Shown piece by piece: positions 5,132 through 43,566 of a stretch of 59,123 nucleotides of DNA. The number at the start of each line of letters is the position of its first letter. The stretch's first letter is position 1. Under the pieces are notes generated by a model. It was not told the DNA's origin. It ran no database searches and was given only the letters and a program-made list of their open reading frames with translations. Source of the stretch: an uncultured Myxococcales bacterium (GTDB taxonomy: Bacteria > Myxococcota_A > UBA9160 > SZUA-336); the NCBI GenBank assembly GCA_964582775.1, contig CAZOTO010000001.1, positions 1 to 59,123 on the forward strand. Direction: 5' to 3'. A program made the position numbers and the translations under genes.

Positions 5132-5154
5132 CCCAGGGATTCCTTTTTCTCGAT

Positions 5155-5173: not shown

Positions 5174-5195
5174 CCCCGAGAAGGAGTCCACGCCC

Positions 5196-5660
5196 ATGAG
5201 TCAACGGAGCCTCGTTGAGTACTTCACATCCGACCACCGAGACTGCGACGAACGCTGGGCCGGTGTCGAGGACGCGGCGCAGGGCGGGGCATCCGAGGCA
5301 GTCCGCCGCGCCTTCCGGAGGTTCGACCATGCCCTGCGCACCCACCTCGAAATGGAGGAGCGGGTACTCTTCCCGGCGTTCGAAGATGCAACGGGCATGC
5401 ACGACGGCGGCCCGACTTTCGTGATGCGCATGGAGCACGAACAGATGCGCGGGCTCCTCGACCAAATGGCCGCGGCTCTCGCAGGCGGTGCAACGAAGGA
5501 GCTGCTCGACCAAGGCGACTCCCTCCTCATGCTGATCCAGCAGCACAATGTCAAGGAGGAGGGAATGCTCTATCCCATGGCGCAGCGAGCACTCGGCGCT
5601 CACTGGTCCGCACTTCGCGCTGCGCTCGAGCCAATTCACGCCGGGCGCGACGCGGATTGA
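5196..5660 (+). CDS. Hemerythrin HHE cation-binding domain protein
   Basis: 154 aa: YFTSDHRDCDERW..HLEMEERVLFPAFE..GPTFVMRMEHEQMRGLL..QQHNVKEEGMLYP. This is the typical His/Glu ligand spacing of bacterial hemerythrin-like proteins. AAGGAG RBS upstream. Confidence 0.85.
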   Translation: MSQRSLVEYFTSDHRDCDERWAGVEDAAQGGASEAVRRAFRRFDHALRTHLEMEERVLFPAFEDATGMHDGGPTFVMRMEHEQMRGLLDQMAAALAGGATKELLDQGDSLLMLIQQHNVKEEGMLYPMAQRALGAHWSALRAALEPIHAGRDAD

Positions 5661-13188: not shown

Positions 13189-13854
13189 TCAATCGCGGCT
13201 GGAATCAGCCGGTAACGTGAAGAAGAAGCGCGCACCACGCCCTTCTTCCGACTCGACCCAGATCCTTCCGCCCTGCATCGCGACGAGCTTCGAGCAGATG
13301 GCCAAGCCAAGCCCGCTGCCCGATCGCTCGCCGGGGTGGGCTCTCTCCAAGGCGCGAAAGATACGCACATGGTGCTCCGGAGAGATCCCGATCCCACGAT
13401 CCGCCACGCAGAGCACGACTTCGCCGCCCACGCGTTCACCGCTCACACGCACCCGGGGCGAAGTACTGCCGCAGAATCGAACCGCATTGGCGATCAGATT
13501 CTGGAAGATGCGCGCAACGAACAGGGCATCGGCCCGCACCCGCGGAAGTGGTGTCATCTCGATCGACGCGGATGAATCCTCGATCCGCTTCCTGAGATTG
13601 GCGATCGCCCAACCCACGGACTCGGATGGGTCGATGCCCTCGAGCTCGGGCTGCCTCGCGCCCGCACGAGCATAGTGAAGCAGATCTTCGACCAGCTGAC
13701 GGGCACGCCTGGCCTGACCGAGCGCCACGGCCCGGGTATGCGGATCTCCCTCGAGCTGACCGAGCAGGTGCTCCAGGTTACGGAGCGGCTCGTCCAAGTC
13801 GTGCGCCAAGGAACTCATGAGCGCTTCAAGCTCGTGGATTCTTCCCTCGCTCAT
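13189..13854 (-). CDS. Soluble histidine kinase core (HisKA + HATPase_c) with no sensor or TM domain
   Basis: From ATG 13854 (GGAG directly upstream): MSEGRIHELEALMSSLAHDLDEPLRNL (H-box)..FQNLIANAVRF (N-box)..VADRGIGI (G1)..GSGLGLAICSKLV (G2). About 221 aa. Confidence 0.85.
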   Translation of the reverse strand: MSEGRIHELEALMSSLAHDLDEPLRNLEHLLGQLEGDPHTRAVALGQARRARQLVEDLLHYARAGARQPELEGIDPSESVGWAIANLRKRIEDSSASIEMTPLPRVRADALFVARIFQNLIANAVRFCGSTSPRVRVSGERVGGEVVLCVADRGIGISPEHHVRIFRALERAHPGERSGSGLGLAICSKLVAMQGGRIWVESEEGRGARFFFTLPADSSRD

Positions 13855-13964: not shown

Positions 13965-16900
13965 GTGCATCCCAGCCCCCCCCAACGGACGCACTCCATC
14001 CAGCAGCAATCCCATGGAGACCATCCAGCATTGAAGCCCGAAGCACCAGGGGCCACGCCGCCCTTCTTCACGCGAGTCGTCGACATCTTCCTCAAGGGAA
14101 AGCTCTCGCCCTTGCTGATCGCGTTATCCCTCCTCGCGGGAGCCGTCTCCCTAGGCATCACTCCCCGAGAAGAGGAGCCGCAGATCGTCGTACCGATGGC
14201 GGACGTGCTCGTAACCGCCCCGGGGCTCTCGAGTGAGGAGATCGAGCGCCACATATCGACACGACTTGAAAAGCTTCTGCTTCAGATCGATGGTGTCGAA
14301 CACGTGTACTCGATGTCGCGCCCTGAGGAAGCGGTGATCACGGTACGATTTTATGTTGGAGAGGACCGCGAAGACAGCCTGATCAAGCTTCACAACAAGA
14401 TCGAGTCGCACCGGGATTGGGTTCCAAATAGCGTGACCTCGTGGGTCGTCAAGCCGATCGAGATCGATGACGTTCCCATCGTGATCGCAACGCTTTGGAG
14501 TGACCGGCCTACCGAGATCGATGACTACGCCCTCCGCCGCATCGCCGAAGAGCTCGAAATCGAGCTCCAGTCCGTTCCTCAGACCAATCGCACCGCGATC
14601 ACCGGCGGCCGTAAACGCACTGTTAGAGTAGAGCTCGAACCCGAAACCCTCGCCGCCCGCCAAACGACGCCTCTCGACGTCGCATGGGCACTCGCGGTAT
14701 CGAACGTGCAGAGCAGAGCTGGTGAATTCGATCGGCGTGATACGACCATTCCAGTGGACGGAGGGGAGCATCTTCAGGACATTCCATCGCTGGAACGGCT
14801 CACCGTGAACGTGGTGAATGGATCTCCGGTATTCCTGAAAGACATCGCGAACGTAGTCGATGGACCTGCCGAACGATCCAGCTACACATGGTTTGCATTC
14901 GGTCCGGCATCACTGAGGACCAGCGCACATGAGAGCTACATGGCCCCCGGATCCTTGACACCAGCCGTCCACATCTCGATCGCCAAGCAGAAGGGCTCCA
15001 ACGCAGTTTCTGTTGCGAATCTCATCGAGGAGCGGATCGCACAGCTCGAGAGAACCCATCTTCCCCATGGGGTTCACCTCCGCATCACCCGAAACTACGG
15101 AGAAACCGCAAATGAAAAGGTCGCCGAGCTCGTCGAAGCCCTTGCCGTCGCGATCATCATCGTCATCGGACTCATCGCGATCGCGATGGGCTGGCGCGAG
15201 GCGCTCGTTGTCGCCATATCCGTTCCGATCACCTTCTCACTCGTTCTTTTCTTCAACTGGCTCGCTGGATACACGATCAACCGCGTTACGCTTTTCGCGC
15301 TGATTTTATCGTTGGGACTCGTGGTGGACGATCCCATCGTGGATGTCGAGAACATCCACCGTCATCTGTCCAAGAAGACGGAGCCTCCGCTTCGCGCCGT
15401 ACGAACCGCAGTCAACGAGGTTCGCCCACCGATTCTGCTGGCTACCGCCGCAGTCATCGTCTCGTTTCTACCCATGCTGTTCATCACAGACATGATGGGC
15501 CCCTACATGCGACCGATGGCCATCAATGTTCCTGTTGCCATGGCTTCCTCGATGCTTGTGGCCTTCACGATCACGCCATGGCTCTCCTATCATGTCATGC
15601 GCTCGAAGGCGTCGCCGATCCAAAAGGCGGACAACACCAATAAACCAATCGATGACTCGGGATTAAGACGTGGCTACACCCGAATTCTTGAGCCCTTTCT
15701 CGAGAATCGAGGTAAGGCACTGTTACTGTTGGCGACCACGGCATTCCTGTTCTTCGCGGCTCTGCTGCTGGCCGGACTTCGACTGGTTCCGCTCAAAATG
15801 CTTCCCTTTGATAACAAGGACGAGTTCCAAGTCGTACTCGATGCACCCGAAGGGACGACACTCGAGCGCACCGATGCGATAGCACGCCGCATGGCGCTCG
15901 AGATCGCACGAGCTTCTGAAGTCCGTGATCTCAGCATCTTCTCAGGAATCGCCAGTCCAATGGACTTCAATGGGCTCGTCCGCCACTACTTCTTGAGAGA
16001 AGGCCCGGAAGTCGCAGACATTCGGGTAAATCTTGCTGAGAAGCGTTCCAGGATGAAGGGAAGCCACGATATTCTCCTTCGTCTTCGCCCGAGGCTCGAA
16101 GTCATCGCGCGCGAAGAGGGCGTACGCATTGCACTCGTCGAGACCCCTCCAGGCCCCCCCGTTCTTTCGACAATCGTCGCCGAGGTCTACGGTTCCCCTC
16201 AGACTCGATACGAGCAGATACGCGATGCTACGCTCCGCGTAGGGAGTCGGCTATCAAGGGAGCCGCTTGTTTCGGACGTGGATACGAGTGTCGAATCCGC
16301 ACATGACCGCCTTCTCTTCGTGGTGGACAAGGAGAAGGCAGCGCTTTCCGGTATTTCGACCGACGACGTGACGCAAACACTTCGAATTGCGCTGCGTGGG
16401 CTCGATGCGGCACAACTTCACGTTCGAGGAGAGGTGAACCCTCTCCTGATTCGCCTGCAGCTCCCGCGTAAGTGGCGCTCGGGAGAGGAACATCTCTCAG
16501 CCCTCACTCTCAAGGGCCGCCCCGGCGTTGCGAAAATTCGCCAGGGCGGAGGGGTACACGATGCCCCTCTTCCGCTTGTTCGCTTGGGCGAGTTAGGCAG
16601 ATTCCAACGCGTGGAGGCGGAGAGAGTCATCTACCACAAAAATCTCCAACGGGTCTCCTACGTGTATGCCGAACCCGTCGGCCGATCTCCCGCCGAAGCG
16701 ATCATCGATGTCGGAGCTGATCGGATCCGAGTCGATCAAACCGTGAGTACTCGCGACAATGGCCCGATACCGCTCGAAGCGCGCACCTACTTCCGAAACG
16801 GCGGGGGCGATTTCTGGTCGTTACCGGATGATATTACGGTTCAGTGGAATGGTGAGGGTGAGTGGAAGATCACTCTCGACGTGTTTCGCGATCTCGGAAT

Positions 16901-17447
16901 CGCGTTTGGTGTTGCACTATTGGGCATATATCTCCTTCTACTGTACCAGACGAGTAGCTATCTGATGCCTCTCGTCTTGATGATCTCGATTCCTTTGACC
17001 TTGATTGGCATCATGCCAGGTTTCTGGATATTGAACCTGCTTGCGGGTGGAGGCGCGGAGGGGATCCCAACTCCCGTGTACTTTACCGCAACTGCAATGA
17101 TCGGAATGATCGCATTGGCCGGAATTTCGGTTCGCAATTCGATTCTCCTGATCGAGTTCTTGCACGTTGATCTTGCACGAGGACGCTCCCTCGTAGATTC
17201 GCTCATCTCGGCAGGCTCCATGCGCACGCGCGCGATCCTTCTCACGGCTGGCACCGCCGTACTCGCTGCGGTTCCCATCACCCTCGATCCAATCTTCTCT
17301 GGACTCGCGTGGGCGCTGATCTTCGGTCTTGCCGTTTCGACTGCCTTCACCCTAGTCGTCGTTCCTATCGCCTATTACCTGATCTACGCGGGTCGGGACG
17401 GTCATGGACTCGAAAGAGAGGCTCATCGCGAGGAGGACATCGCATGA
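13965..17447 (+). CDS. RND efflux transporter permease (AcrB/HAE-like)
   Basis: 1160 aa, 12-TM RND layout. TM4 motif LSLGLVVDDPIVDVENIHRHL resembles the AcrB VDDAIVVVEN. The N-terminal ~30 aa of the ORF may be an over-extension. Confidence 0.9.
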   Translation: MHPSPPQRTHSIQQQSHGDHPALKPEAPGATPPFFTRVVDIFLKGKLSPLLIALSLLAGAVSLGITPREEEPQIVVPMADVLVTAPGLSSEEIERHISTRLEKLLLQIDGVEHVYSMSRPEEAVITVRFYVGEDREDSLIKLHNKIESHRDWVPNSVTSWVVKPIEIDDVPIVIATLWSDRPTEIDDYALRRIAEELEIELQSVPQTNRTAITGGRKRTVRVELEPETLAARQTTPLDVAWALAVSNVQSRAGEFDRRDTTIPVDGGEHLQDIPSLERLTVNVVNGSPVFLKDIANVVDGPAERSSYTWFAFGPASLRTSAHESYMAPGSLTPAVHISIAKQKGSNAVSVANLIEERIAQLERTHLPHGVHLRITRNYGETANEKVAELVEALAVAIIIVIGLIAIAMGWREALVVAISVPITFSLVLFFNWLAGYTINRVTLFALILSLGLVVDDPIVDVENIHRHLSKKTEPPLRAVRTAVNEVRPPILLATAAVIVSFLPMLFITDMMGPYMRPMAINVPVAMASSMLVAFTITPWLSYHVMRSKASPIQKADNTNKPIDDSGLRRGYTRILEPFLENRGKALLLLATTAFLFFAALLLAGLRLVPLKMLPFDNKDEFQVVLDAPEGTTLERTDAIARRMALEIARASEVRDLSIFSGIASPMDFNGLVRHYFLREGPEVADIRVNLAEKRSRMKGSHDILLRLRPRLEVIAREEGVRIALVETPPGPPVLSTIVAEVYGSPQTRYEQIRDATLRVGSRLSREPLVSDVDTSVESAHDRLLFVVDKEKAALSGISTDDVTQTLRIALRGLDAAQLHVRGEVNPLLIRLQLPRKWRSGEEHLSALTLKGRPGVAKIRQGGGVHDAPLPLVRLGELGRFQRVEAERVIYHKNLQRVSYVYAEPVGRSPAEAIIDVGADRIRVDQTVSTRDNGPIPLEARTYFRNGGGDFWSLPDDITVQWNGEGEWKITLDVFRDLGIAFGVALLGIYLLLLYQTSSYLMPLVLMISIPLTLIGIMPGFWILNLLAGGGAEGIPTPVYFTATAMIGMIALAGISVRNSILLIEFLHVDLARGRSLVDSLISAGSMRTRAILLTAGTAVLAAVPITLDPIFSGLAWALIFGLAVSTAFTLVVVPIAYYLIYAGRDGHGLEREAHREEDIA

Positions 17448-19072
17448 GGGCCATCATGAAGACGGCACTCGAGGCAGTTGCCGGAGGGTTGGTGCTCGCT
17501 GTCGGAGTCGCCTGGCTATCGGGCGGGTGCGGGAAGAGAATCGATCCTGGGAGCGACCCTACGCCCGCCGAAAGAGTTCCCGATGATGCGAGCATCGTTT
17601 CGGTTGAGCAGTTTTGGGACCTCGGGTTCGAGCGTTTCAGTGGAACGATCGCTTCATCCCGTCATGCCACGGTTTCATCGAAGATTCTGGCGCGGATCGA
17701 GGCGATTCGTGTTCGCGCAGGTTCTGAGGTGAGGGAGGGCGACGTTCTCGTGCAGTTGGATCAACGAGATCTGGAGGCCCGGATGCGGGCCGCTCGCGAG
17801 TCTGTCTCCGGTTCGCGCGCCAGCCTGGATCTTGCACGTTCGGAGCTCGAGCGCGTGGAGGGCCTTTGGCGGGCCAACGTTGCGAGCTTGCAGCAGCTCG
17901 AGCAGGTTCGCGCACAGTTCGAACTCGCGAAGTCGGATTTCGATCGGACCCAGGAGCAGCTTCGCGACGCAGAGGTCGCAGTGTCCCATGCGGTAATCCG
18001 CTCCCCCGTTTCCGGCCGTGTCGTGGATCGATTGGCCGAGCCGGGGGACACCGCAGCTCCTGGAGCTCCTTTGCTACGGATCTATGACCCGGGTGCTCTT
18101 CGGCTTGAGGTTCCGGTCAGGGAGTCACTCGCGATGCGGCTAACTCCCGGCCAGCAGATCGATGTTCGCATCGATGCCATCGAGAGCGACGTAGCGGGAG
18201 CCATCGACGAAATCGTTCCTCATGCCGAGCCCGGTGCAAGAACTTTCCTCGTCAAGATCCGCCTACCTTCCGATGTACGCTTGTATTCAGGGATGTTTGG
18301 TCGGGCCAAGATCCCTTTTCGGGAGACGCTTCGCTTCCGCATCCCGGTCGAGGCAGTGCAAACAATCGGACAACTCGAGTTTGCAGAGGTGGCACGACCC
18401 GATGGATCGATCGAGCGGCGATGGATTACGATCGGCCCCGTCGCGGGTTCCGGCTGGGTCGAGGTTCTGAGCGGACTCTCTCCGGGTGAAGACGTCGTGC
18501 TCAGGATGTCCTCAGTGAATTCCAACGAGTCGAGTTCAGTGCCTACGGGTGAGGTAGGAGCGGAATTGCAGGCTGAGGTGGTACACCGGGCACGTAATGC
18601 GCTTGCACCTCTCAAGCTAGCACTTCGTACAACGCTAGAGGGTGCGCTCTCGAACGGGGGACCCATGAATGCGATCGACGTGTGCCGCATTCGAGCGCCA
18701 CAGATTGCCTTGGACTCCAGCTCTCGATCGATTCTGGTCGGGCGCACCAGTCATCGGGTGCGAAACCGTATCAATGCACCAAAGCTCTGGATGGAGCCCT
18801 CGCTCAATGAGTTCCGTGCGATGCCAGTTGCCGCGGGTGCGTATCGGGTTGTCTCGATTGATGAGGAGAGGATCGGATATACCGAGCCGATCTATCTCGA
18901 GCCACTATGCATTGTTTGCCATGGAACCTCGATTGATGAGTCGCTCTCACTGAGGATCCGCAATCTGTACCCGTTCGACCAGGCCGTTGGATTCTCACCC
19001 GGTGATTTTCGGGGGCTATTTTGGGTCGAGATCAATCGGAGCGAATTCGCGGACGGATTGCATCTAAGGTAA
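17444..19072 (+). CDS. RND periplasmic adaptor (MFP/HlyD family) lipoprotein fused to a C-terminal DUF3365/Tll0287-like CxxCH heme domain
   Basis: ATG 17444 overlaps the pump stop as ATGA. Lipobox LSGGC. MFP body: ..VSSKILARIEAIRVRAGSEVREGDVLVQLDQRDLEARM..IRSPVSGRVVDR... C-terminal ~175 aa: ..GGPMNAIDVCRIRAPQIA..VGRTSHRVRNRINAPKLWE..EPLCIVCHG..NLYPFDQAVGFSPGDFRGLFWV, with CIVCH at 18908-18922. Confidence 0.85.
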   Translation: MRAIMKTALEAVAGGLVLAVGVAWLSGGCGKRIDPGSDPTPAERVPDDASIVSVEQFWDLGFERFSGTIASSRHATVSSKILARIEAIRVRAGSEVREGDVLVQLDQRDLEARMRAARESVSGSRASLDLARSELERVEGLWRANVASLQQLEQVRAQFELAKSDFDRTQEQLRDAEVAVSHAVIRSPVSGRVVDRLAEPGDTAAPGAPLLRIYDPGALRLEVPVRESLAMRLTPGQQIDVRIDAIESDVAGAIDEIVPHAEPGARTFLVKIRLPSDVRLYSGMFGRAKIPFRETLRFRIPVEAVQTIGQLEFAEVARPDGSIERRWITIGPVAGSGWVEVLSGLSPGEDVVLRMSSVNSNESSSVPTGEVGAELQAEVVHRARNALAPLKLALRTTLEGALSNGGPMNAIDVCRIRAPQIALDSSSRSILVGRTSHRVRNRINAPKLWMEPSLNEFRAMPVAAGAYRVVSIDEERIGYTEPIYLEPLCIVCHGTSIDESLSLRIRNLYPFDQAVGFSPGDFRGLFWVEINRSEFADGLHLR

Positions 19073-19211
19073 TCAGCAATCCGGGCTCGCCCCATCGCGA
19101 CAGCCATTGGCGGCTTTGCTCTGGGGAGCTCTGCTGGGCACTTATGGAATTCTTCCGATGGTTGATTCTGTTCACCGAGCGAAGTGTCGGCAACTGTGCA
19201 AGTCTTTTGAC

Positions 19212-20000
19212 GTGAGCGATTTCCAGCCCGTTGTCACATTCTTGCATCGTCAATTGCGGGATCCCATTGCGATCCTCGCTTATGCGGGATGGAACGATGC
19301 AGGTGAGGCGGCTACAGATGCGACGCGATTCCTGCTCGATGCGCTTCCCGCTGAGAAGATTGCAACGGTCGAATGCGAGGAATTTCTCGACTTCACGGTT
19401 ACTCGACCTCACCTCAGGATTGACGAGGAGAGTCGACGTGAGATCCTTTGGCCTAATCTCGAGTTCTTCAGGCTGCGCCGCCCACGGCAGCCGTTTGACT
19501 TGGTGGTCGGGGTTGGGGCGGAGCCTCACCTCAAATGGAAGACGCACTGCAGGTGCGTCATAGATCTTCTCAAGCGTTTCGATGTTCGAGCGGTCGTTCT
19601 TCTTGGTTCATATTTTGATGAAGTGGTATACTCGCAGCCAGTACCAATCTTCGGCTTCTGCTCCGACGAGGCTCTCCGGATTCAGTCGGGAATTCCTGAC
19701 GCGCCTCTCGCGGGACCGGCGGGCATCATCGGCGTCCTTGGGGACGAGATTATGCGGCACGGTATTCGCGTTTCCGCGCTTTGGGCGCGGGTTCCCCACT
19801 ACGTATCGAGGGTGCCGAATGTTCGTGGCACCCTTGCACTGCTGCAACGGCTAGAGACGATTACAGGATTGTGGTTTGGATTGGATTCCCTATCCCAGGA
19901 GGCCGACGAGTTCGATCGTGAAATCTCGGAATTCATTGCTGGTGATCCCAACCTCTCGGCTTACGTTAGAAGCCTGAAGCGACGCTCGTTTCAGGGCTAG
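19212..20000 (+). CDS. PAC2 (proteasome assembly chaperone 2-like) family protein
   Basis: ..DPIAILAYAGWNDAGEAATDA..LVVGVGAEPHLKW..VVLLGS..AGPAGIIGVLG..ALWARVPHY.. Start is uncertain (GTG 19212 or TTG 19242; longest ORF from 19107). Confidence 0.75.
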   Translation: MSDFQPVVTFLHRQLRDPIAILAYAGWNDAGEAATDATRFLLDALPAEKIATVECEEFLDFTVTRPHLRIDEESRREILWPNLEFFRLRRPRQPFDLVVGVGAEPHLKWKTHCRCVIDLLKRFDVRAVVLLGSYFDEVVYSQPVPIFGFCSDEALRIQSGIPDAPLAGPAGIIGVLGDEIMRHGIRVSALWARVPHYVSRVPNVRGTLALLQRLETITGLWFGLDSLSQEADEFDREISEFIAGDPNLSAYVRSLKRRSFQG

Positions 20001-20425
20001 CGTGCTTGTGGATCGATCCTCATCAGTGTGACGTCAGCATCGCCCTCATCAGGATCGAGCGAATGATCGGGATAGGGGGCGATCTCGGTGCGACGAGTCA
20101 GGAGCTTTGCGATCGCCACTCCGAGTAGCGACCGGGTGCGCTCTGCCATTCCAAGAAATTCGACGGCGAACCCTCGCTCCGTTTCGCGAACGACTCGTGC
20201 GGGAACGCTGATTGGAACCGATTCCTCCAGAAATGAGAATTGCATGGTGATGCGCACGCCGGCCATCGGGAGGCGATTCGCTGGCTCGATGAGGGCCCCG
20301 GTTGTCGATATATTTCTGACGGTCCCGGTTCCCTCGATCCTGCGGTTGCTGAACTCCGCGCGGAACCTCACCGGCACGCGCGGGCGAACTCGACGGTTGG
20401 CGTCAGCGAGAGACTTTTCGGCCAT
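19997..20425 (-). CDS. PilZ domain protein (canonical c-di-GMP motifs)
   Basis: 142 aa: RRVRPRVPVRFRAEF..GTVRNISTTGALIE (RxxxR and NxSxxG about 25 aa apart). Confidence 0.85.
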   Translation of the reverse strand: MAEKSLADANRRVRPRVPVRFRAEFSNRRIEGTGTVRNISTTGALIEPANRLPMAGVRITMQFSFLEESVPISVPARVVRETERGFAVEFLGMAERTRSLLGVAIAKLLTRRTEIAPYPDHSLDPDEGDADVTLMRIDPQAR

Positions 20426-20527
20426 TGCGGGTCCTGTGATGGCGATCGGTCAGGTTTCGCTAGCGCTTTAGCGTCGACGCAATGCGTTGGCTCAAGCCCC
20501 ACCGAGCGGTCACCGATCCGGGCGGGC

Positions 20528-20914
20528 GTGGGTCTATCGGAACGCGCTCGTCGTCGTCTTCGAGTTTCTCAGGTACGGGTTCGCTTCATTGCGGAGGGCA
20601 TGGAGGGCGTGGGTCGCCTCCTGGACGTCTCACGCGCAGGACTTCTCGTTGGATCGTTCGATCCTCCTCGCGAGGGAGCCCTCATCGTCCTCCAGTTCGA
20701 GCACCCGGAGGGATCGCTCCTCGATCTCCGTGGAGAGGTACGCTGGGCGAAACGCAGTGGCGGTGGAGGTGATGGCACCCACGCCAGTTTTGGGGTGCTC
20801 CTTCGAGAGCCCTCTCTAGAGTTTCGCGACTTCTTTCTCTGGGCAATGGAGAGACACGCGAAGACCGATGAAGGCCGCACGGATCTGTGTTATCCATCGC
20901 CGCATGACGATTGA
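20528..20914 (+). CDS. PilZ domain protein (canonical motifs)
   Basis: RARRRLRVSQVRVRF..GRLLDVSRAGLLVG (RxxxR, DxSxxG). I chose GTG 20528 because the longest ORF (from 20240) overlaps the divergent PilZ gene. The 3' end overlaps the pyrF start. Confidence 0.7.
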   Translation: MGLSERARRRLRVSQVRVRFIAEGMEGVGRLLDVSRAGLLVGSFDPPREGALIVLQFEHPEGSLLDLRGEVRWAKRSGGGGDGTHASFGVLLREPSLEFRDFFLWAMERHAKTDEGRTDLCYPSPHDD

Positions 20915-21648: not shown

Positions 21649-24600
21649 TTAGAAGCGCTGTCGCCAGTAGATCAGCTCCACCGGCGCACCACCGCCATCT
21701 GGCGCAGGCGTAGGCTGGATCTGGCCGGCCGAAGTCTTGGTGAATATCTTCGCGGTGTCTCCAACGCTAATTCTCGGATCTGAAGGAACACCGACCCCCA
21801 AATACAGCCTGCGACCGCTTTCGCCGGAGGCAGCTCCGCTTACCAGGTCGAAGATATACAAGTACGCAGAGCCATCGGTACCGCAGACACCTCCGCTGCC
21901 GTCGTCCGGAATATAGCTCGCTGTGATCACGGAGCCGCGGAACACGACGTGGTTCGTAATGAACTTTTCGCCCTTCTCTGCCACAACGTAGTATCCGAGG
22001 TCCGTGGGATCCGTATCATACCCAAGGGCAGTGACGTCCGTGAGGTTTGCCTCGGAGTAAGGCGCGATCGGGATCGCTCCAGATCCTTGTGGATTTGGAT
22101 CGCGTATCACGTAGAAGCGGTTCATGTCATCGACGGTGCCATCGGCATGCCCCGCGTACTTGATGTCAGAGCGCTCGCCGGTCCCGAACGCTAGAATCAA
22201 TCTACCCTTGCTTCGCGCTACCACAGGCTGGAAAAAGATGCCCCGATGGTGTCGTCCGCCGCTCGGCAAGGAGACCGACCCCGCATCGAAGAAGATGCCC
22301 GCGGTCCAATTGTCGATGAGGTTGTCCGAGTTCGAATCCTCGGCAACACTCGAAATGTCCCATTTCCAGAGCTGGCCCCCGGTGTCGCCGATGTAGATCA
22401 GATCCGCGAAGCCATCGGAGTTCAAGTCAAGGACTGCAGGAGTGCTAGGAATTGCGTAGTTCATCTTGGATAACACAGGGTCCGACGCATCGTACGCCAG
22501 CTGCGCAACGACGGAACCGCTATCGAGTGCGATCACCAGAACGGAGCGGCTATCGCCATCCAAAGAACCTGGAACGTATCCTGCGAGATTCGGATCCGCG
22601 TTCGCTCGGAATCCTCCGCCAACAACCGCCACCCACTGCTCCCGACAGTCTCCTTCGCCATCATCGCTCCCGCAGTGGTCGCCGAAGCCTTCTTGTGCTC
22701 GCACCTTGATTCGCGTGAGGATGGGATCAGACCAGGTCTCCCCGAGAGGGAGGCCCGCGTCGTTCAACTCCCAGAGCAGTCTAGGATATTCTCGATGCAC
22801 ACCAGAGGGATCCGTGACGTCCCAGGCGATGTACCCGTCTCCGCCCTGCCGGAGCCCCGTCATGACCACCGTCGCCCACTCCTCGACATCTTTCGTCGTG
22901 TCACTAGGCGAGCTCGGAAACCACGCATCCGCGACAGCGGGGCTGCCATCTACGTAATAGTGCGACCTCGGCGTGTTGCGTGGAATCATCTTGACCTTGT
23001 CGAGCAACATGCCAGGGATGTATGCGAATACCTCATCTCCCGTGCCGAGATCGTAATAGTCCTTTTCAACTTCGGGCGTTAGCGGGTTATCTCCCTCTCG
23101 ATAGGTTCCTGCATCGATCGCATGGAGCATTCCATCATTGGCGCCGACGTACAGCCTCCGATCCCTTCGTTGATAGCGATTGAGGAAGGTTCCCGTTTGG
23201 TTGATTGGGCCGAACCCCTCCTCACGTCTGAGCAAAGAAGGTGGGGGGCCGACGACGAGCGGATTCGAGTGAAAGATGTCGCCGATGATCGCCTCCCGAA
23301 GATCTGTCGTGTCACCATCCGAATCCTCATCGAAGGAATCCTGGCCGTAGAGGTACCGGACAAGTGCATCGGAGAGGGCGTCCACGTCGACAAATTGCAC
23401 CGTCGGATAGTTCGGATAGGACGATATCTCCGTGGGCTGCACGTCGAGTTCTGTGGCTCCAATGGTCGCCACGTCGAACGTCTGCCGAGTGTCTCCGAGA
23501 GTCGTGTAGATCGAACGCGGGGGATGAGACGGGTCAAGAAGGCGCTCCGAGGCGCGCCAGAAAGGAACTGCGGTGTCGAGCAGAGTGCCCGTCGCATCGA
23601 CAGCAAGGTTCCCATTGGCATCTAGGATGTCAAGCGAGGGGGACAGCCGGAACGCCGATATATCTCCCTCCCAGAATCCACTTGTCGCCTTCGGAACGAA
23701 CGAAGCGGTGAACAGGCCATCCCCGAACGAGGTGCGAGTAGAGGGAACTGTCGTCGAGGTGAACGAGGTCGAGCGCTCGATGATGTCTTGTACCGCAGTA
23801 AACAGAGCGTTCGTCAACTCATCAGCGTTCGATGCAATGTAGTATTCCCCATTTCCGTTCGTCGCCGCATCACGAAGGAGAGGGTGGTCAACCATGAATC
23901 CAACAGTGTAGGTGACGATGTTCTGGGTCCCCTGAAGATCGGGGCGGAGATCATTGTTGTAGTACTTGTAGGCGACGTCATCGAGCCAGTCCGTACCGGT
24001 GCTGCTGTATGGTGGCGCATCCGAGCGACCATCGTAGGGGCTTGGTACTTCGTCCTCGTCTCCGTCTGCATTTCCGATCGCACACATGAATCCCGCTTGA
24101 TCATGTGCAAAGTCATCTTTCGTGGACTCGCCGTCCGTCATGAGTATGACGAAGTTCTTTCGACACCAATCCTGCATTGGGTTCGATGGTGAGACCGCAT
24201 CGCCTCCAGAGCAGCTCCAGACCGAAGAGATACCGGTCATGTACTCGCCAGCATGCGCAAGCGTCTCCGCGAGTGGGGTCCAGCTGATCGGATTCGTTGC
24301 ATTGATCGCCGCAACCATCGCAGCTTTGTTTCCAGTCGTAATCTCCTGCGAGACAGTGCCACCGTCCGGGTCGTTCGCAGAGTTATTGGGCTTGAAGACC
24401 ATGAGCCCGAACCGAACATTTTCATCGGTCCCCGGGTTGATCGAGTCAATTAGATCAACAAGCGTCTGCTTCGCAGTCCCGATTCGGTCGATGCTCGGGG
24501 TGATGGGAGTTTGTCCATCGAGGACTCGCGAAAACAGCCAGCTCAGGTAATTCAGTGACCATCGCGTGCTATACCCGCCGGCAGTGTAGTCCGGAAGATA

Positions 24601-25023
24601 ATAGTAACAATAGGAGCTGCTGCTACTGGTGCTCCACCCAGCCGGAGCCGTGGCTGCACAATTGCTTCCTGGGACCACTGATCTATTGCAGCGCACGTAG
24701 CTCCCTGAGCTTCGATTTGATTCGTTGTCGGGACACTGGCCCGACGCGTCCCCGCTGGCCGGGCAGAAGCCTGCCGATCCAGGTGACGCAGGGACGTCTC
24801 CGACGTTGCAGTAGGTTCGTACCTTCCCGACGTCGTAGAATACTGTCGGATCGAAGTCGTCTGCCCACATCGAGTGTGCCATCGATCCAGAGTTGTCCAA
24901 TATCAGCAAGACGTTCGGGGGAACGATTCGCGTCACCATGTCGATGTCGGACTGAGCTTCCGCGCGATTTGCGGCCGAGGCAATCATCCCAGCGATCAAC
25001 ACGAGGAGATGTCGCGTCTTCAT
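21649..25023 (-). CDS. pilY1: Type IV pilus tip-associated adhesin PilY1/PilC family (N-terminal vWA + C-terminal beta-propeller)
   Basis: 1124 aa with signal peptide. MIDAS-like VLLILDNSGSM. ..LYVGANDGMLHAIDAGT..EVFAYIPG.. and ..DLNSDGFADLIYIGDTGGQLWKWDIS.. are typical PilY1 propeller motifs. Confidence 0.88.
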   Translation of the reverse strand: MKTRHLLVLIAGMIASAANRAEAQSDIDMVTRIVPPNVLLILDNSGSMAHSMWADDFDPTVFYDVGKVRTYCNVGDVPASPGSAGFCPASGDASGQCPDNESNRSSGSYVRCNRSVVPGSNCAATAPAGWSTSSSSSYCYYYLPDYTAGGYSTRWSLNYLSWLFSRVLDGQTPITPSIDRIGTAKQTLVDLIDSINPGTDENVRFGLMVFKPNNSANDPDGGTVSQEITTGNKAAMVAAINATNPISWTPLAETLAHAGEYMTGISSVWSCSGGDAVSPSNPMQDWCRKNFVILMTDGESTKDDFAHDQAGFMCAIGNADGDEDEVPSPYDGRSDAPPYSSTGTDWLDDVAYKYYNNDLRPDLQGTQNIVTYTVGFMVDHPLLRDAATNGNGEYYIASNADELTNALFTAVQDIIERSTSFTSTTVPSTRTSFGDGLFTASFVPKATSGFWEGDISAFRLSPSLDILDANGNLAVDATGTLLDTAVPFWRASERLLDPSHPPRSIYTTLGDTRQTFDVATIGATELDVQPTEISSYPNYPTVQFVDVDALSDALVRYLYGQDSFDEDSDGDTTDLREAIIGDIFHSNPLVVGPPPSLLRREEGFGPINQTGTFLNRYQRRDRRLYVGANDGMLHAIDAGTYREGDNPLTPEVEKDYYDLGTGDEVFAYIPGMLLDKVKMIPRNTPRSHYYVDGSPAVADAWFPSSPSDTTKDVEEWATVVMTGLRQGGDGYIAWDVTDPSGVHREYPRLLWELNDAGLPLGETWSDPILTRIKVRAQEGFGDHCGSDDGEGDCREQWVAVVGGGFRANADPNLAGYVPGSLDGDSRSVLVIALDSGSVVAQLAYDASDPVLSKMNYAIPSTPAVLDLNSDGFADLIYIGDTGGQLWKWDISSVAEDSNSDNLIDNWTAGIFFDAGSVSLPSGGRHHRGIFFQPVVARSKGRLILAFGTGERSDIKYAGHADGTVDDMNRFYVIRDPNPQGSGAIPIAPYSEANLTDVTALGYDTDPTDLGYYVVAEKGEKFITNHVVFRGSVITASYIPDDGSGGVCGTDGSAYLYIFDLVSGAASGESGRRLYLGVGVPSDPRISVGDTAKIFTKTSAGQIQPTPAPDGGGAPVELIYWRQRF

Positions 25024-25520
25024 CAGTATCCTGCTCCTTCCCGTACACTGAACTGCGCCTGAAGCTCTACCCGACCGCCCGCCGGGTCCTGTGCTACGGT
25101 ATCCACGCGATAGATGGTCCTAATGTATGAGTTTGCGGCGCCTATATTGAGCTGATCCCCGTCGGCTGTGCCATATCCAACGGCTTGCGGCGGCGTCGCG
25201 GCTGCATTGTCCGCCGTACCGGTGCGTGCCGCAATCAAGCCACCGTTCGAGTCCTCAAGATTGATCGCCTGACTCAATGGGACAACGTACTGAGATCCCG
25301 ATGGATCCAGCTGAAGTCGCACGGCATCCATGACTGCATCTGCAGCATAGAATGTCGATGCTTTTCGCACGGAGCGCCCGCCGGCGGATCCTTCGCTCTG
25401 CGCATTCTGGAGAGCGTTGAGCCCGATGGCACTTACCATGAGCAATAGAACCACGGCGATGAGAAGTGCAACTCCATCGTCGTGTTCCTGCCGGGTGGTG
25501 TCGATGTAATTGGTTTCCAT
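25023..25520 (-). CDS. pilX: Type IV minor pilin PilX-like
   Basis: 165 aa: ..QEHDDGVALLIAVVLLLMVSAIGLNAL.. (PilX_N-type hydrophobic segment). Position between pilW and pilY1; 1-nt stop/start overlap with pilY1. Confidence 0.7.
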   Translation of the reverse strand: METNYIDTTRQEHDDGVALLIAVVLLLMVSAIGLNALQNAQSEGSAGGRSVRKASTFYAADAVMDAVRLQLDPSGSQYVVPLSQAINLEDSNGGLIAARTGTADNAAATPPQAVGYGTADGDQLNIGAANSYIRTIYRVDTVAQDPAGGRVELQAQFSVREGAGY

Positions 25521-25536
25521 GGTGCTGGCGTATCCC

Positions 25537-26526
25537 CTAGAGGTAGTTTCGCGGTAGTACGCTTGTCACGAATCGACGCCGACGGAACGTGTCGGATGGG
25601 CCTGCAACGCGGTTTGCACTCGCAGGTCGCATGCGGTTATCAATCTGATGCCCGCCTGGATTTTCCTCCTGGTCTGTTCTGGTCACGACGCTGATTCGAA
25701 CACGGCGGAGCTTCGAGAGATCTCGCGTTGCGATGGGCGGCTGCGTTAGATCGTGAACCGGGAATTCCGTGTCATTGTCGATTCGGCCGTTTCCGTCGCC
25801 ATTTGCGTCGAGATTGACATCATCGATCCAATACTCTGCTTGCAGATCTTCTATTCCCGTAGCAACGACAAGACCGTTGCGCGTGAGCGTTAGGGTGTTC
25901 TCGTCGAGCTCGTAGATCACTGCAGGAACCACTCGGACGTCTTCCGGGGCCGCAAACGCGAATGGAAGCGGCGGATCGAAGATGATCGTGGTGATCTGAA
26001 TTTCAGTGATGCGCGCGCAGTGCGCGCGGACCCCATCGGATAGGATGACACCACGCCCCGGGCCGACGAAGTCGTTGGCTCGGTCCGCTTCTGTGCTCTC
26101 GTCCACGTTCAAGGTTGTGAGGGCGGTGCGATCCCCGGCCGCCAGTGCCGGAATCGCGCCGTCGAACTTTGTGAGACGTGATAGCGTCGATGATGTGTAT
26201 GTCAGAGTGTTTGGATCGAGCGCAGGGAAGTCGAAGTAGCTAGAGTCGCTTATGCAGAGCCGGTCAGCGGCATTCACTCCTCCGTCGACGCTCGCGACTC
26301 CTCCAGAGCGAGGCACCATGAATCCTGCCATTCGCGCATCGTATGCGATGAGGTCGATCACGGTCCGCGTGTCTTCTTGGACGTCGAGGACGCGCTCGCT
26401 CGCCATGTAGACGCGCTTCTGAGAGTTGAGCAGCATGAATAGCTGGGAGGTAACAACACCCATGACCGCCACCGCCACGAGCATTTCGAGCATCGAGAAT
26501 CCGGAGTCGTCTCTCGTGCGCATCAT
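25537..26526 (-). CDS. pilW: Type IV minor pilin PilW
   Basis: 329 aa: GFSMLEMLVAVAVMGVVTSQLFMLLNSQKRVY..VQEDTRTVIDLIAYDARMAGF (class III signal plus PilW core). Confidence 0.8.
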   Translation of the reverse strand: MMRTRDDSGFSMLEMLVAVAVMGVVTSQLFMLLNSQKRVYMASERVLDVQEDTRTVIDLIAYDARMAGFMVPRSGGVASVDGGVNAADRLCISDSSYFDFPALDPNTLTYTSSTLSRLTKFDGAIPALAAGDRTALTTLNVDESTEADRANDFVGPGRGVILSDGVRAHCARITEIQITTIIFDPPLPFAFAAPEDVRVVPAVIYELDENTLTLTRNGLVVATGIEDLQAEYWIDDVNLDANGDGNGRIDNDTEFPVHDLTQPPIATRDLSKLRRVRISVVTRTDQEENPGGHQIDNRMRPASANRVAGPSDTFRRRRFVTSVLPRNYL

Positions 26527-26951
26527 GACCCTCTAATCCCCTGGAGCTGAAGGCGCCCGACTCGGTTCGATCCGTCCTCCCATTCGACGCGGACGGTAAT
26601 TCGTGTCAGCCCCACGGCGGGGAGGTTTGGTTCGATCGTCCAGGAGCGGGAATAGGTGGTGAGGTCGTCGTCATTGGGATCGATGTCGACAGGGCCTTGG
26701 GGGTCGGGATTGTTTTCCACGGCTGCGGCTAGTGCCGCATCTCCCGCAGGGAGGGCGAGGAACTCATCGAGCTGGTCTTGAGCGAGGTACATCGCCTGGG
26801 ATCGGTGCTTCGATCCCGATGACATCTTGAGCGCGGAGAGTTGCGCTACGCCGATGGACAAGATTCCAACTCCTAGGATCGCCATCGCGATCAGAACCTC
26901 GAGGAGGGTGAATCCTGGGTTGTCATTGGTGCGACACGAGCTGTCGGTCAA
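26523..26951 (-). CDS. pilV: Type IV minor pilin PilV
   Basis: TTG 26951 is preceded by GGAGAATAACA just after the fimU stop. MTDSSCRTNDNPGFTLLEVLIAMAILGVGILSIGVAQLSAL.. Confidence 0.8.
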   Translation of the reverse strand: MTDSSCRTNDNPGFTLLEVLIAMAILGVGILSIGVAQLSALKMSSGSKHRSQAMYLAQDQLDEFLALPAGDAALAAAVENNPDPQGPVDIDPNDDDLTTYSRSWTIEPNLPAVGLTRITVRVEWEDGSNRVGRLQLQGIRGS

Positions 26952-26962
26952 TGTTATTCTCC

Positions 26963-27655
26963 TTAGTTCCACGTGCCGAGACCGGGAGAGAGCGTTCGCA
27001 CTCTTACTCCACCGAGCGGTTGCAGGATCACAGCGAGGACGGCGGAGTGGTTGTCGGTTACATAGATTGCCCCGGCCCCAGTGCCCCATGCGCCAAGGCG
27101 ATTGGGGAGAGCTCCAAGCTCGACCGGTATCCCTTGAGAGGTGAAGCCCACAGCTCTCGCACCGGTTACCGGGTCGGCAGGGAGCGTGATCCCATCGACG
27201 AGGTCCGCAAGGTCGCCTCCGCCTCCGGCGAGGTCCTCAGGCGCGAGCGGAGAATCGGAAAAGGGGGTCGTTCCATCCGGATGGCTACCATAGATTGAAA
27301 CCTCTGCGTCGAGCCCAGGTTTGGGGAAGAAGCTCTGGAGCCGATCGCCTGGATCGATGAGACCGTCGCCGTTCGCATCAACAACGAGCAGAGCGACTGC
27401 ACCAGCCTCGAACTCAGGGATCACCCCTTCTGCAGACAGGAATACATACGTGGGATTCCCCGATGCGGTGGCTTGTGTTCGCGCCTCCGTGAGGACGGAG
27501 CTGATGAGCCCCGCATGATTTCGCGCATCCTCGCGAGCCCGATATCGAACGAGAGATGGCCCCGCGAGGAGACTGAGAGCACCAAGAATGGCGACCACGA
27601 TGAGCACCTCGATCATCGTGAATCCAGCCGACTCGTGACGTAGACGCATTTTCAT
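26963..27655 (-). CDS. fimU: GspH/FimT/FimU-family minor pilin
   Basis: 230 aa: ..SAGFTMIEVLIVVAILGALSLLAGPSLVRYRAREDARNHAGLISSVLTEARTQA.. First gene of the minor-pilin operon. Confidence 0.75.
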   Translation of the reverse strand: MKMRLRHESAGFTMIEVLIVVAILGALSLLAGPSLVRYRAREDARNHAGLISSVLTEARTQATASGNPTYVFLSAEGVIPEFEAGAVALLVVDANGDGLIDPGDRLQSFFPKPGLDAEVSIYGSHPDGTTPFSDSPLAPEDLAGGGGDLADLVDGITLPADPVTGARAVGFTSQGIPVELGALPNRLGAWGTGAGAIYVTDNHSAVLAVILQPLGGVRVRTLSPGLGTWN

Positions 27656-43559: not shown

Positions 43560-43566
43560 CCAGGGT

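What the first reader, a model, noticed from the sequence alone, without database searches (positions are those of the whole stretch)
17444..19072. RND adaptor (MFP) fused to a DUF3365/Tll0287-like c-type heme domain
Seen: a lipoprotein MFP (LSGGC lipobox, HlyD-type body) continues through a Ser-rich linker (..SSVNSNESSSVP.., about nt 18510) into a ~175-aa domain. That domain carries the DUF3365 signature (..GGPMNAIDVCR..APQIA..VGRTSHRVRNRINAP..W..EPLCIVCHG..YPFDQAVGFSPGDFRGLFWV) and a CxxCH heme-attachment motif at 18908-18922.

Established: the Tll0287 structure shows this fold is a PAS-like c-type heme domain. DUF3365 usually occurs as the periplasmic sensor module of histidine kinases, chemoreceptors and diguanylate cyclases, or as a stand-alone protein.

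Inference: a heme sensor covalently attached to an efflux adaptor would let a periplasmic redox, gas or ligand signal gate pump assembly or activity directly. I do not know of this being described.
Basis: partly seen in the sequence, partly recalled or inferred. Interest (0 to 1): 0.62.

Follow-up and report, generated by a model that had tools for sequence, protein, structure and literature searches.

The report
Efflux-pump adaptor carrying a haem domain
A real, recurrent gene in uncultured wastewater Myxococcota joins the periplasmic adaptor of an RND efflux pump, through a floppy linker, to a c-type haem "Cache" domain normally found as a free-standing periplasmic protein; this combination is undescribed in the literature I could search and suggests the pump is coupled to periplasmic redox chemistry.

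Summary
ORF 17444..19072 (+) encodes one 542-aa protein: a complete four-domain RND adaptor (TIGR01730 186.8 bits), a disordered Ser-rich linker, and a Tll0287-like/DUF3365 domain (PF11845 40.9 bits, cut-off 24.1). CxxCH lies exactly at 18908-18922. It is not a frameshift: contigs from four independent studies match with no differences, and 35 homologous protein clusters share the architecture.

DUF3365 has been reclassified as "sCache_heme", with a stand-alone, redox-like Cluster 1 that keeps a distal Cys and a signalling, NO-sensing Cluster 2. This domain is Cluster 1 in every marker. Its nearest relatives are stand-alone periplasmic proteins, and that subfamily's other fusion partners are cytochrome c and rhodanese, not signalling modules. 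The linker is 11-46 aa, low-complexity and unconserved, which suits a tether better than a signal-transmitting helix. Bootstrapped trees of both halves reject a single origin of the fusion (0/100).

Best reading: a haem module tethered at the pump's periplasmic base, acting on or capturing substrate. Redox gating of the pump is the main rival. Function is inferred; haem binding is untested. This is a new variant of known kinds, not discussed in the literature I searched.

The parts
13965..17447 (+). RND inner-membrane permease, a divergent HAE-1-like ACR_tran protein. Its stop codon overlaps the adaptor's start codon (ATGA). The true start is uncertain: GTG 13965 or TTG 14031.
   Evidence: Pfam ACR_tran 466 bits. 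NCBIfam RND_permease_2 scores 395 bits, below its 1250 cut-off. Best PDB sequence hits are Mex/Acr/Cme-type pumps at E~1e-56. TM4 reads VVDDPIVDVEN, TM10 reads ISVRNSILLIEF, and there are no cysteines. The same RND-then-adaptor overlap is conserved in relatives.
17444..19072 (+). Whole fused gene: RND periplasmic adaptor plus sCache_heme, 542 aa
17444..17530 (+). N-terminal signal/anchor helix ending in LSGGC (Cys29); probably a lipoprotein signal
   Evidence: Sequence. The AF2 model has a helix at aa 2-25. Cys29 is present in 22/25 family members and is Phe in 3.
17591..18502 (+). Adaptor body, aa 50-353: membrane-proximal, beta-barrel and lipoyl domains plus the alpha-hairpin
   Evidence: TIGR01730 at aa 61-353. 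AF2 pLDDT is mostly above 86. Foldseek hits TMexC, ZneB, AcrA and MexA at E 1e-24 to 1e-20 over 325-344 columns.
17762..17986 (+). Alpha-helical hairpin (helices aa 107-143 and 149-181). From my own knowledge its length is AcrA/MexA-like, which implies docking to an outer-membrane factor encoded elsewhere.
   Evidence: DSSP on the AF2 model. No OMF gene was found in the window or in related loci.
18503..18559 (+). Flexible Ser-rich linker (about aa 354-372)
   Evidence: pLDDT is below 50 for aa 356-369. In the family the linker is 11-46 aa, low-complexity and unconserved.
18560..19063 (+). sCache_heme (Tll0287-like/DUF3365) domain, aa 373-540
   Evidence: PF11845 40.9 bits. 5B82 matches by sequence at E 1.4e-8 and by fold at TM 0.60/0.64.
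18683..18685 (+). Cys414, aligned with the distal axial haem ligand Cys68 of Tll0287
   Evidence: Alignment. Invariant in 25/25 fused and 22/22 stand-alone relatives.
18908..18922 (+). C489-I-V-C492-H493: covalent c-haem attachment motif and proximal His (Tll0287 C141/C144/H145)
   Evidence: Invariant in all aligned members.

Best explanation
The gene encodes the periplasmic adaptor of a translationally coupled two-gene RND module (permease, then adaptor). The adaptor's C-terminus leaves the membrane-proximal domain at the base of the pump. It continues through a flexible tether into a Cluster-1-type sCache_heme domain, which should carry a covalently bound c-haem with His493 and Cys414 as axial ligands. 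If the pump has the usual 3:6:3 stoichiometry, six such haem domains would hang around its periplasmic entry side.

The domain was recruited from free-standing periplasmic (lipo)proteins, apparently at least twice. I think it most likely acts locally as a redox-active accessory. It would capture or chemically convert the pump's periplasmic substrate, or a reactive small molecule, and hand it to the pump. That is the same logic as the CusB N-terminal tail with CusF, or the processing domains on type I secretion transporters. It is less likely to be a classical environmental sensor.

Shown: the single ORF, both domain identities, the haem-ligand residues, the subclass, recurrence, the variable linker, and the two-gene module.

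Inferred: periplasmic location, haem attachment, stoichiometry, position at the pump base, and the whole functional role.
For: The architecture is real and conserved.

The domain is Cluster 1, not Cluster 2. The distal Cys, L48 and N95 are present in 25/25 members and position 44 is hydrophobic in 25/25. A basic residue at position 85 occurs in only 7/25 (marker definitions from the paper).

The paper reports that Cluster 1 proteins are redox-like, bind NO weakly and show no genomic link to signalling genes.

The nearest relatives are stand-alone proteins of 173-208 aa with their own signal peptides or lipoboxes. None of the nearest 150 representatives has signalling length. Other fusion partners in this subfamily are cytochrome c and rhodanese, which are electron- and sulfur-transfer modules.

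The linker is 11-46 aa and unconserved and is disordered in the window's model. The relative position of the two halves is not fixed (pTM 0.47).

Fused forms are not monophyletic in the adaptor tree or in the domain tree (0/100 bootstraps each). Group g1 has 100% support, as does g2+g3+P0098. Repeated recruitment onto the same adaptor family argues for a functional coupling to the pump.

Both halves evolve at similar rates: 47-73% identity for the adaptor body and 40-72% for the haem domain.
Against: No substrate is known for this divergent pump clade.

Gene neighbourhood adds nothing beyond the fusion. Unfused loci lack a nearby DUF3365 gene, and the closest stand-alone genes are not next to pumps.

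The rhodanese and cytochrome c associations come from single representatives.

His/Cys-ligated haems are also classic redox or gas switches, so the same evidence fits a regulatory role through reversible docking.

The trees are NJ trees from short alignments, sampled around the window's own protein. 'Independent fusion' could instead be one fusion followed by several losses or fissions.

Haem attachment needs a cytochrome c maturation system, which is not in this window.
Confidence: 0.4

Rival explanations
1. Sensor gating. The haem domain senses periplasmic redox potential or a gas or ligand (NO, O2, sulfide) through a switch at the distal Cys. It then regulates adaptor-pump assembly or activity after translation, for example by docking onto the membrane-proximal domain or porter cleft in one state and releasing in the other.
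For: The Cache fold is a sensor superfamily, and Cluster 2 relatives are NO sensors. The distal Cys and His ligands are invariant; from my own knowledge, His/Cys haems often undergo redox-linked ligand switching. The domain attaches right after the membrane-proximal domain, which in other adaptors contacts and activates the transporter (established knowledge; domain order). Recurrent fusion fits any kind of functional coupling.
Against: The domain belongs to the non-signalling subclass, whose characterised member binds NO weakly. None of its nearest 150 representative relatives has a signalling architecture. The linker is variable in length and sequence and disordered in the window's model, unlike the rigid helices that transmit Cache signals. 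AF2 gives no confident interdomain packing (pTM 0.47).
Confidence: 0.3
2. Anchor swap without functional coupling. The stand-alone protein is often a lipoprotein, and here it has simply exchanged its lipid anchor for the adaptor. It performs its usual, still unknown periplasmic redox job independently of the pump.
For: Many stand-alone relatives have lipobox-like N-termini. The long flexible tether would permit independent function. No conserved neighbours point to a shared pathway.
Against: The fusion recurs in separate lineages of the same adaptor family, and also in a Bacteroidota adaptor. It persists over divergence down to 43% identity with both halves equally conserved. A neutral anchor swap would not be expected to recur on, and stay with, an efflux adaptor specifically.
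Confidence: 0.15
3. Artefact. These are two adjacent genes (adaptor plus stand-alone DUF3365) merged by a sequencing or assembly frameshift. Alternatively, the domain is degenerate and no longer binds haem.
For: Stand-alone DUF3365 genes do exist. The junction is low-complexity sequence.
Against: Contigs from four studies show 0 differences across 17300-19200. The identical protein is on 7 contigs. Thirty-five homologous clusters are fused. There is no signal peptide between the two halves. CxxCH, the distal Cys and the family motifs are invariant.
Confidence: 0.02

Closest known systems
Tll0287 (PDB 5B82) and stand-alone Cluster 1 sCache_heme proteins such as the P. putida protein
   Same: Same Pfam family and fold. 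Same CxxCH, proximal His and distal Cys. Same Cluster 1 marker residues. The nearest relatives are stand-alone periplasmic proteins at up to 54% identity.
   Different: Those proteins are free-standing, with their own signal peptide or lipobox. Here the domain has no signal peptide of its own and is the C-terminal module of an RND adaptor. The published classification recognises only stand-alone (including cytochrome c fusions) or signalling architectures.
Cluster 2 sCache_heme receptors (P. azotoformans Cache_heme-HAMP NO receptor; DUF3365 histidine kinases such as GSU0356)
   Same: Homologous haem-binding Cache domain located in the periplasm.
   Different: In those proteins the domain is N-terminal, followed by a transmembrane helix and cytoplasmic output, and the characterised member (the P. 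azotoformans receptor) lacks the distal Cys. Here the domain is C-terminal, keeps the distal Cys, has no cytoplasmic output and joins through a floppy linker.
AcrA / MexA / ZneB / TMexC periplasmic adaptors
   Same: Four-domain adaptor body with a long hairpin. Encoded next to, and translationally coupled with, an RND permease.
   Different: Gene order is permease then adaptor. No outer-membrane factor is in the locus. The pump clade is divergent. A 170-aa haem domain follows the membrane-proximal domain. The 2021 Chem Rev review of tripartite pumps mentions no haem, cytochrome or redox domain on an adaptor in the first 300,000 characters of its text, which is all that is held.
CusB N-terminal metal-binding tail with CusF (from established knowledge, not tested here)
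   Same: A precedent for a flexible accessory module on an RND adaptor that captures periplasmic substrate and passes it to, or activates, the pump.
   Different: The Cus module is a short Met-rich peptide that binds Cu(I)/Ag(I). It is not a folded cofactor-bearing domain, and it sits at the N-terminus rather than the C-terminus.
His/Cys-ligated c-haems of sulfur enzymes (SoxXA, TsdA, DsrJ; from established knowledge)
   Same: Predicted His/Cys axial ligation. A rhodanese fusion within the same sCache_heme subfamily hints at sulfur chemistry.
   Different: The fold is unrelated, and no sequence or context evidence here ties the pump to sulfur metabolism.

Membership tests
RND periplasmic adaptor / membrane fusion protein (TIGR01730, HlyD_D23) | Family HMM matched above the curated cut-off | tested here: met
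   TIGR01730 186.8 bits against 94.9. HlyD_D23 67.8 bits against 30.
RND periplasmic adaptor / membrane fusion protein (TIGR01730, HlyD_D23) | Four-domain fold: membrane-proximal, beta-barrel, lipoyl, alpha-hairpin | tested here: met
   AF2 model. Foldseek hits TMexC, ZneB, AcrA and MexA at E 1e-24 to 1e-20 over 325-344 columns.
RND periplasmic adaptor / membrane fusion protein (TIGR01730, HlyD_D23) | Encoded with an RND permease in one operon | tested here: met
   The ACR_tran gene ends at 17447 and overlaps the adaptor's ATG at 17444. The same pair is found in L001, L002, L004, L005 and L089.
RND periplasmic adaptor / membrane fusion protein (TIGR01730, HlyD_D23) | N-terminal export signal or lipid anchor | tested here: inconclusive
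   A hydrophobic helix at aa 2-25 followed by LSGGC fits a lipoprotein pattern by eye. The Cys is replaced by Phe in 3/25 relatives. No signal-peptide predictor was available.
RND periplasmic adaptor / membrane fusion protein (TIGR01730, HlyD_D23) | Works with an outer-membrane factor | not testable with these tools
   No OMF gene in the window or related loci. It could be encoded elsewhere in the genome.
sCache_heme (Tll0287-like / DUF3365, PF11845) | Family HMM matched above the gathering score | tested here: met
   40.9 bits against 24.1, E 3.5e-10.
sCache_heme (Tll0287-like / DUF3365, PF11845) | Conserved CxxCH in the insertion before the last strand | tested here: met
   C489/C492/H493 align to Tll0287 C141/C144/H145. 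They are invariant in 25 fused and 22 stand-alone relatives.
sCache_heme (Tll0287-like / DUF3365, PF11845) | Tll0287 fold | tested here: met
   Domain model pLDDT 90.7. The only significant PDB match is 5B82 (E 1.5e-6, TM 0.60/0.64).
sCache_heme (Tll0287-like / DUF3365, PF11845) | Covalently bound c-type haem | not testable with these tools
   Needs expression with a Ccm system, haem staining and spectroscopy.
sCache_heme Cluster 1 (stand-alone, redox-like) | Hydrophobic residues at Tll0287 positions 44 and 48; Asn/Ser at 95; distal Cys as in Tll0287 and the P. putida protein | tested here: met
   Position 44 is L/V/M/F in 25/25, L48 in 25/25, N95 in 25/25 and Cys68 in 25/25. Definitions.
sCache_heme Cluster 1 (stand-alone, redox-like) | Stand-alone architecture (or cytochrome c fusion) | tested here: not met
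   The domain is the C-terminal module of a 542-aa adaptor. By sequence it is Cluster 1, but its architecture falls outside the published definition.
sCache_heme Cluster 2 (signalling, NO-sensing) | Fused to HK, MCP, GGDEF/EAL or HAMP output through a transmembrane segment | tested here: not met
   No such domains in the protein.
sCache_heme Cluster 2 (signalling, NO-sensing) | Basic residue at position 85 and acidic residue at position 101; no distal Cys in the one characterised member | tested here: not met
   A basic residue at 85 occurs in 7/25 (Leu in the window). An acidic residue at 101 occurs in 16/25 (Lys in the window). The distal Cys is present in 25/25.
HAE-1 multidrug RND permeases (for the partner pump) | Subfamily HMM above the curated cut-off | tested here: not met
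   Best is RND_permease_2 at 395 bits against 1250. CusA/CzcA scores 186 bits against 701. The pump is in the ACR_tran superfamily (466 bits) with an AcrB-like DD motif in TM4, but it forms a divergent clade.

The most novel reading that the evidence does not exclude
An RND pump whose adaptor carries its own c-type haem, so that efflux is coupled directly in the periplasm to redox chemistry. The coupling could be a redox- or ligand-operated gate on pump assembly or activity, or a tethered haem enzyme or receptor that feeds its product into the pump. Different bacterial lineages would have arrived at this solution independently. Either form would be a mode of control or substrate supply for tripartite pumps that I found in no paper, and it would give the functionally orphan stand-alone half of the sCache_heme family a physical partner.
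Probability: 0.55. Interest if true: 0.78.

Novelty: new variant of a known kind. Interest (0 to 1): 0.58.

Why it matters
RND pumps are regulated mainly at transcription. The accessory domains known on pump components either recruit or process substrate.

A cofactor-bearing redox domain tethered to the adaptor would be a new way to link efflux to the periplasmic redox or chemical state.

The fusion also bears on an open problem stated in the 2026 sCache_heme study: about half of that large family consists of stand-alone proteins with no known partners or function. Here a Cluster 1 domain is physically joined to a defined machine, which gives a testable handle on what these proteins do.

The apparently repeated origin of the fusion suggests the link is adaptive and not accidental.

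Tried and rejected
1. Frameshift or misassembly. Rejected from independent contigs and 35 fused homologue clusters.

2. Separate-gene test by neighbourhood. Unfused adaptor loci L004 and L005 have no DUF3365 gene nearby. The closest stand-alone DUF3365 loci L006-L008 have no pump nearby. No support from this test.

3. Conserved regulators or an OMF around fused loci. None were found. Only the RND-adaptor pair is conserved.

4. Heavy-metal (HME) pump. Not supported: TM4 carries an AcrB-like VVDD motif, and the CusA/CzcA model scores 186 bits against a 701 cut-off.

5. Foldseek on the full-length model returned only adaptor hits, so the domain had to be modelled separately.

6. Sizing the fused family from the 50%-identity representative library failed. 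Only one fused representative (P0003) appeared, probably because fused members cluster with unfused adaptors.

7. Window-wide search for Ccm, OMF, nitrogen-oxide or cytochrome genes. Nothing relevant; the only in-gene CxxCH of note is the one in this domain.

8. Original Tll0287 paper (JBC 2017). Not held in the library, so statements about its redox potential and proposed roles rest on my memory and on the 2026 preprint's summary.

9. Literature searches for the architecture found no description.
Full report
**1. Observation**

The window holds an uninterrupted ORF at 17444..19072 (+) encoding 542 aa. LSGGC has its Cys at residue 29. The Ser-rich stretch SSVNSNESSSVP is at aa 356-367. GGPMNAIDVCR, VGRTSHRVRNRINAP and CIVCH are all present, the last at nt 18908-18922.

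Pfam places HlyD_D23 (67.8 bits, cut-off 30) and HlyD_3 on aa 71-285. It places Tll0287-like PF11845 (40.9 bits, cut-off 24.1, E 3.5e-10) on aa 413-530. NCBIfam's RND adaptor model TIGR01730 scores 186.8 bits against a 94.9 cut-off.

The C-terminal 190 aa match exactly one sequence in the PDB: Tll0287 (5B82), at E 1.4e-8 over residues 21-182 of 191. In that alignment Cys414 falls on Tll0287 Cys68, the distal axial ligand. C489/C492/H493 fall on C141/C144/H145.

**2. It is one gene**

The identical protein was called on 7 contigs. The 701-bp junction stretch occurs with all sampled 31-mers in at least 10 sequencing runs from 5 studies, mostly wastewater and activated sludge. Contigs from four different studies cover 17300-19200 with no substitutions and no indels.

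A search of 5.8 billion protein clusters returned 35 clusters of 467-571 aa, at 43-69% identity, with the same adaptor plus PF11845 architecture. A 69%-identical homologue sits in a locus syntenic with the window.

**3. Anatomy**

An AF2 model from a 25-sequence alignment (pLDDT 85) gives these parts:
- an N-terminal helix (aa 2-25)
- a complete adaptor body (aa 50-353) with a two-helix hairpin (aa 107-143 and 149-181)
- a disordered segment (aa 356-369)
- a helical-plus-sheet domain (aa 373-540)

The low pTM (0.47) means the two halves have no confidently predicted mutual orientation. Foldseek matches the body to TMexC, ZneB, AcrA and MexA at E 1e-24 to 1e-20 over 325-344 columns.

Modelled alone, using stand-alone relatives as the alignment, the C-terminal domain reaches pLDDT 90.7 and pTM 0.87. 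Its only significant PDB neighbour is 5B82 (E 1.5e-6, TM 0.60/0.64). Cache domains such as PctC, Mlp24 and WalK trail at non-significant scores.

**4. Context**

The gene upstream (13965..17447) is an ACR_tran RND permease (466 bits). Its stop codon overlaps the adaptor's start (ATGA), which suggests translational coupling.

The permease is a divergent clade. Its best NCBIfam subfamily score is 395 bits against a 1250 cut-off. PDB sequence matches are to Mex/Acr/Cme pumps at about 1e-56. TM4 carries VVDDPIVDVEN and TM10 carries ISVRNSILLIEF, so the proton-relay acidic pair is present (the comparison with AcrB is from my own knowledge). The protein has no cysteines.

In fused loci (L001, L002, L089) and unfused loci (L004, L005) alike, the only conserved unit is permease followed by adaptor with overlapping stop and start codons. 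No outer-membrane factor or regulator is conserved.

The rest of the window is ordinary chromosome: central metabolism, type IV pilus, flagellin, c-di-GMP genes. There is no cytochrome c maturation, OMF or nitrogen-oxide gene. The window's IspG is 73-76% identical to that of uncultured Myxococcota/"Deltaproteobacteria" MAGs.

Among GTDB species representatives, the fused form appears in about 6-7 MAGs with those labels. The unfused module is spread over Planctomycetota, Spirochaetota, Alpha- and Gammaproteobacteria and others.

**5. What kind of DUF3365 this is**

A 2026 preprint (Deshpande et al., bioRxiv 10.64898/2026.02.01.703092) reassigns DUF3365/Tll0287 from PAS to the Cache superfamily under the name sCache_heme. 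It shows CxxCH is about 99% conserved and divides the family in two:
- Cluster 1 is stand-alone, or fused to cytochrome c in Flavobacteria. Tll0287 and the P. putida protein carry a distal Cys. The proteins behave as redox-like and bind NO weakly.
- Cluster 2 is fused to kinases, chemoreceptors and c-di-GMP enzymes. Its characterised member lacks the distal Cys and binds NO with slow off-rates.

Using Tll0287 numbering from the alignment, all 25 aligned fused proteins carry the Cluster 1 markers. Position 44 is hydrophobic in 25/25. Leu48, Asn95 and Cys68 are each present in 25/25. The Cluster 2 markers are not conserved: a basic residue at 85 in 7/25 and an acidic residue at 101 in 16/25. The window has Leu and Lys at those two positions.

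Searching with the domain alone returned only stand-alone proteins of 154-300 aa, at up to 54% identity. They have their own signal peptides or lipobox-like N-termini and the same invariant residues.

In a 1.8-billion-protein representative library, the domain has 3,648 relatives at E<=1e-3. The nearest 150 are almost all 130-260 aa. None apart from a fused adaptor exceeds 374 aa, so none is a kinase or chemoreceptor. Of the ten longer ones I scanned, the partners were cytochrome c (P0255, P0279), rhodanese (P0216, 63.6 bits), a weak DUF442/BLH-phosphatase-like match below its cut-off (P0146) and a Sel1 repeat below its cut-off (P0176). None had a signalling domain.

**6. Evolution of the fusion**

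The adaptor body and the haem domain diverge in step: 47-73% and 40-72% identity to the window respectively. Many unfused adaptors are closer to the window's adaptor body (53-60%) than most fused ones are.

NJ trees with 100 bootstraps resolve three fused groups:
- g1: the window, P0002 and P0003
- g2: nine clusters, including MAGs labelled Myxococcota
- g3: the remainder

In the adaptor tree, g1 (100%) nests among unfused adaptors. g2+g3 form a separate clade (100%) together with P0098, a 364-aa protein on a 1,244-bp contig that is probably truncated. Monophyly of all fused proteins has 0/100 support.

In the haem-domain tree, monophyly of the fused domains is also 0/100, with stand-alone proteins interleaved. 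For example, g3 groups with stand-alone P0121-P0123 at 68%.

The junctions differ as well: 29-32 residues in g1, mostly 11-18 in g3, and 24-46 in g2.

The simplest reading is at least two independent fusions. One fusion followed by several losses or fissions is not excluded, given the method and the sampling.

[quoted passage not shown] The architecture therefore also occurs in Bacteroidota. The text does not comment on it.

**7. Mechanism**

Shown:
- a complete adaptor
- a translationally coupled permease
- a Cluster 1 haem domain with all haem ligands invariant
- a variable, low-complexity tether
- recurrence of the fusion

Inferred from established knowledge of AcrAB-TolC and MexAB-OprM structures:
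- The adaptor's C-terminus leaves the membrane-proximal domain at the outside of the pump base.
- Six adaptors surround a permease trimer, so six haem domains would hang within tether length of the permease's periplasmic entry clefts.

The linker's lack of conservation argues against the rigid helix-mediated transmission that Cache receptors use. The subclass, its characterised relatives and its other fusion partners point to redox, electron-transfer or sulfur chemistry more than to signalling.

I therefore favour a pump-tethered redox accessory that captures or converts a periplasmic substrate or reactive species and hands it to the pump, as with CusB's N-terminal tail and CusF (confidence 0.4).

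A functionally uncoupled anchor swap (0.15) is weakened by the recurrence and long persistence of the fusion. Artefact or degeneracy is about 0.02. The remaining probability is for roles I have not thought of.

**8. Comparison and novelty**

By sequence and fold, the protein is a member of both the RND adaptor family and the sCache_heme family, within the latter's Cluster 1. By architecture it fits neither published sCache_heme class, since it is neither stand-alone nor a signalling protein.

It also differs from the adaptors I know of, none of which carries a cofactor domain. The 2021 Chem Rev review of tripartite systems mentions no haem, cytochrome or redox domain on an adaptor in the first 300,000 characters of its text, which is all that is held.

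Full-text searches for DUF3365, Tll0287, Cache_heme, and combinations of adaptor, membrane fusion protein, CXXCH and RND found no description. Database pipelines label these proteins simply as efflux RND transporter periplasmic adaptor subunits.

I rate it a new variant of known kinds. The parts are familiar; the combination and what it implies for pump biology are not described.

**9. Limits**

- Haem attachment, periplasmic location, stoichiometry, substrate and any redox behaviour are all untested.
- The trees are distance-based.
- The read-level check used assembled contigs, not raw reads.
- The original Tll0287 paper could not be read here.

Noticed in passing
window 13189..13854 (-); also L089 5747-6415: A small histidine kinase (HisKA plus HATPase_c, about 221 aa from the Met at ORF residue 65) has no recognisable sensor or transmembrane domain. 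It is transcribed divergently from the pump operon. The same arrangement occurs in the syntenic locus of the 69%-identical homologue, but not in the g2 and g3 fused loci L001 and L002.
   Followed up: partly
P0216, P0255, P0279, P0146, P0176: Within the same distal-Cys sCache_heme subfamily there are other non-signalling fusions: rhodanese plus sCache_heme (P0216), class I cytochrome c plus sCache_heme (P0255, P0279), a weak DUF442/BLH-phosphatase-like N-terminus (P0146), and a C-terminal Sel1 repeat scoring below its Pfam cut-off (P0176). The rhodanese link hints at sulfur chemistry for the orphan stand-alone class.
   Followed up: partly
Supplementary file 9 of bioRxiv 10.64898/2026.02.01.703092: [quoted passage not shown] The adaptor-haem architecture therefore also exists in Bacteroidota, and the paper does not discuss it.
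   Followed up: no
window 42327..45091 (+) and 21649..27655 (-): Flagellin and FliD genes lie in the same window as a type IV pilus PilY1 and minor-pilin cluster, in an organism whose housekeeping genes are closest to Myxococcota MAGs. Myxococcota are classically non-flagellated (my own knowledge), so this is notable.
   Followed up: no
window 4046..5197 (-): A TetR_N DNA-binding domain is fused to a C-terminal DUF2249 domain (56.3 bits), which is an unusual regulator architecture.
   Followed up: no
window 19997..20425 (-) and 20240..20914 (+): Two PilZ-domain genes face each other between the PAC2 gene and the OMP decarboxylase gene. The window also holds response-regulator-GGDEF and HDOD-GGDEF genes at 29792..30748 and 34918..36621, so the neighbourhood is rich in c-di-GMP genes.
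   Followed up: no
L089 11654-12256 versus window 19073..19106: The syntenic locus of the 69%-identical homologue has an extra 200-aa gene with no Pfam hit between the fused adaptor and the PAC2 gene. The window has only a short gap there.
   Followed up: no
window 13965..17447 (+): The partner RND permease has no cysteine residues. It belongs to a widely distributed permease-then-adaptor two-gene module without a linked outer-membrane factor, and it falls below every NCBIfam RND subfamily cut-off. Its substrate class is unknown.
   Followed up: partly
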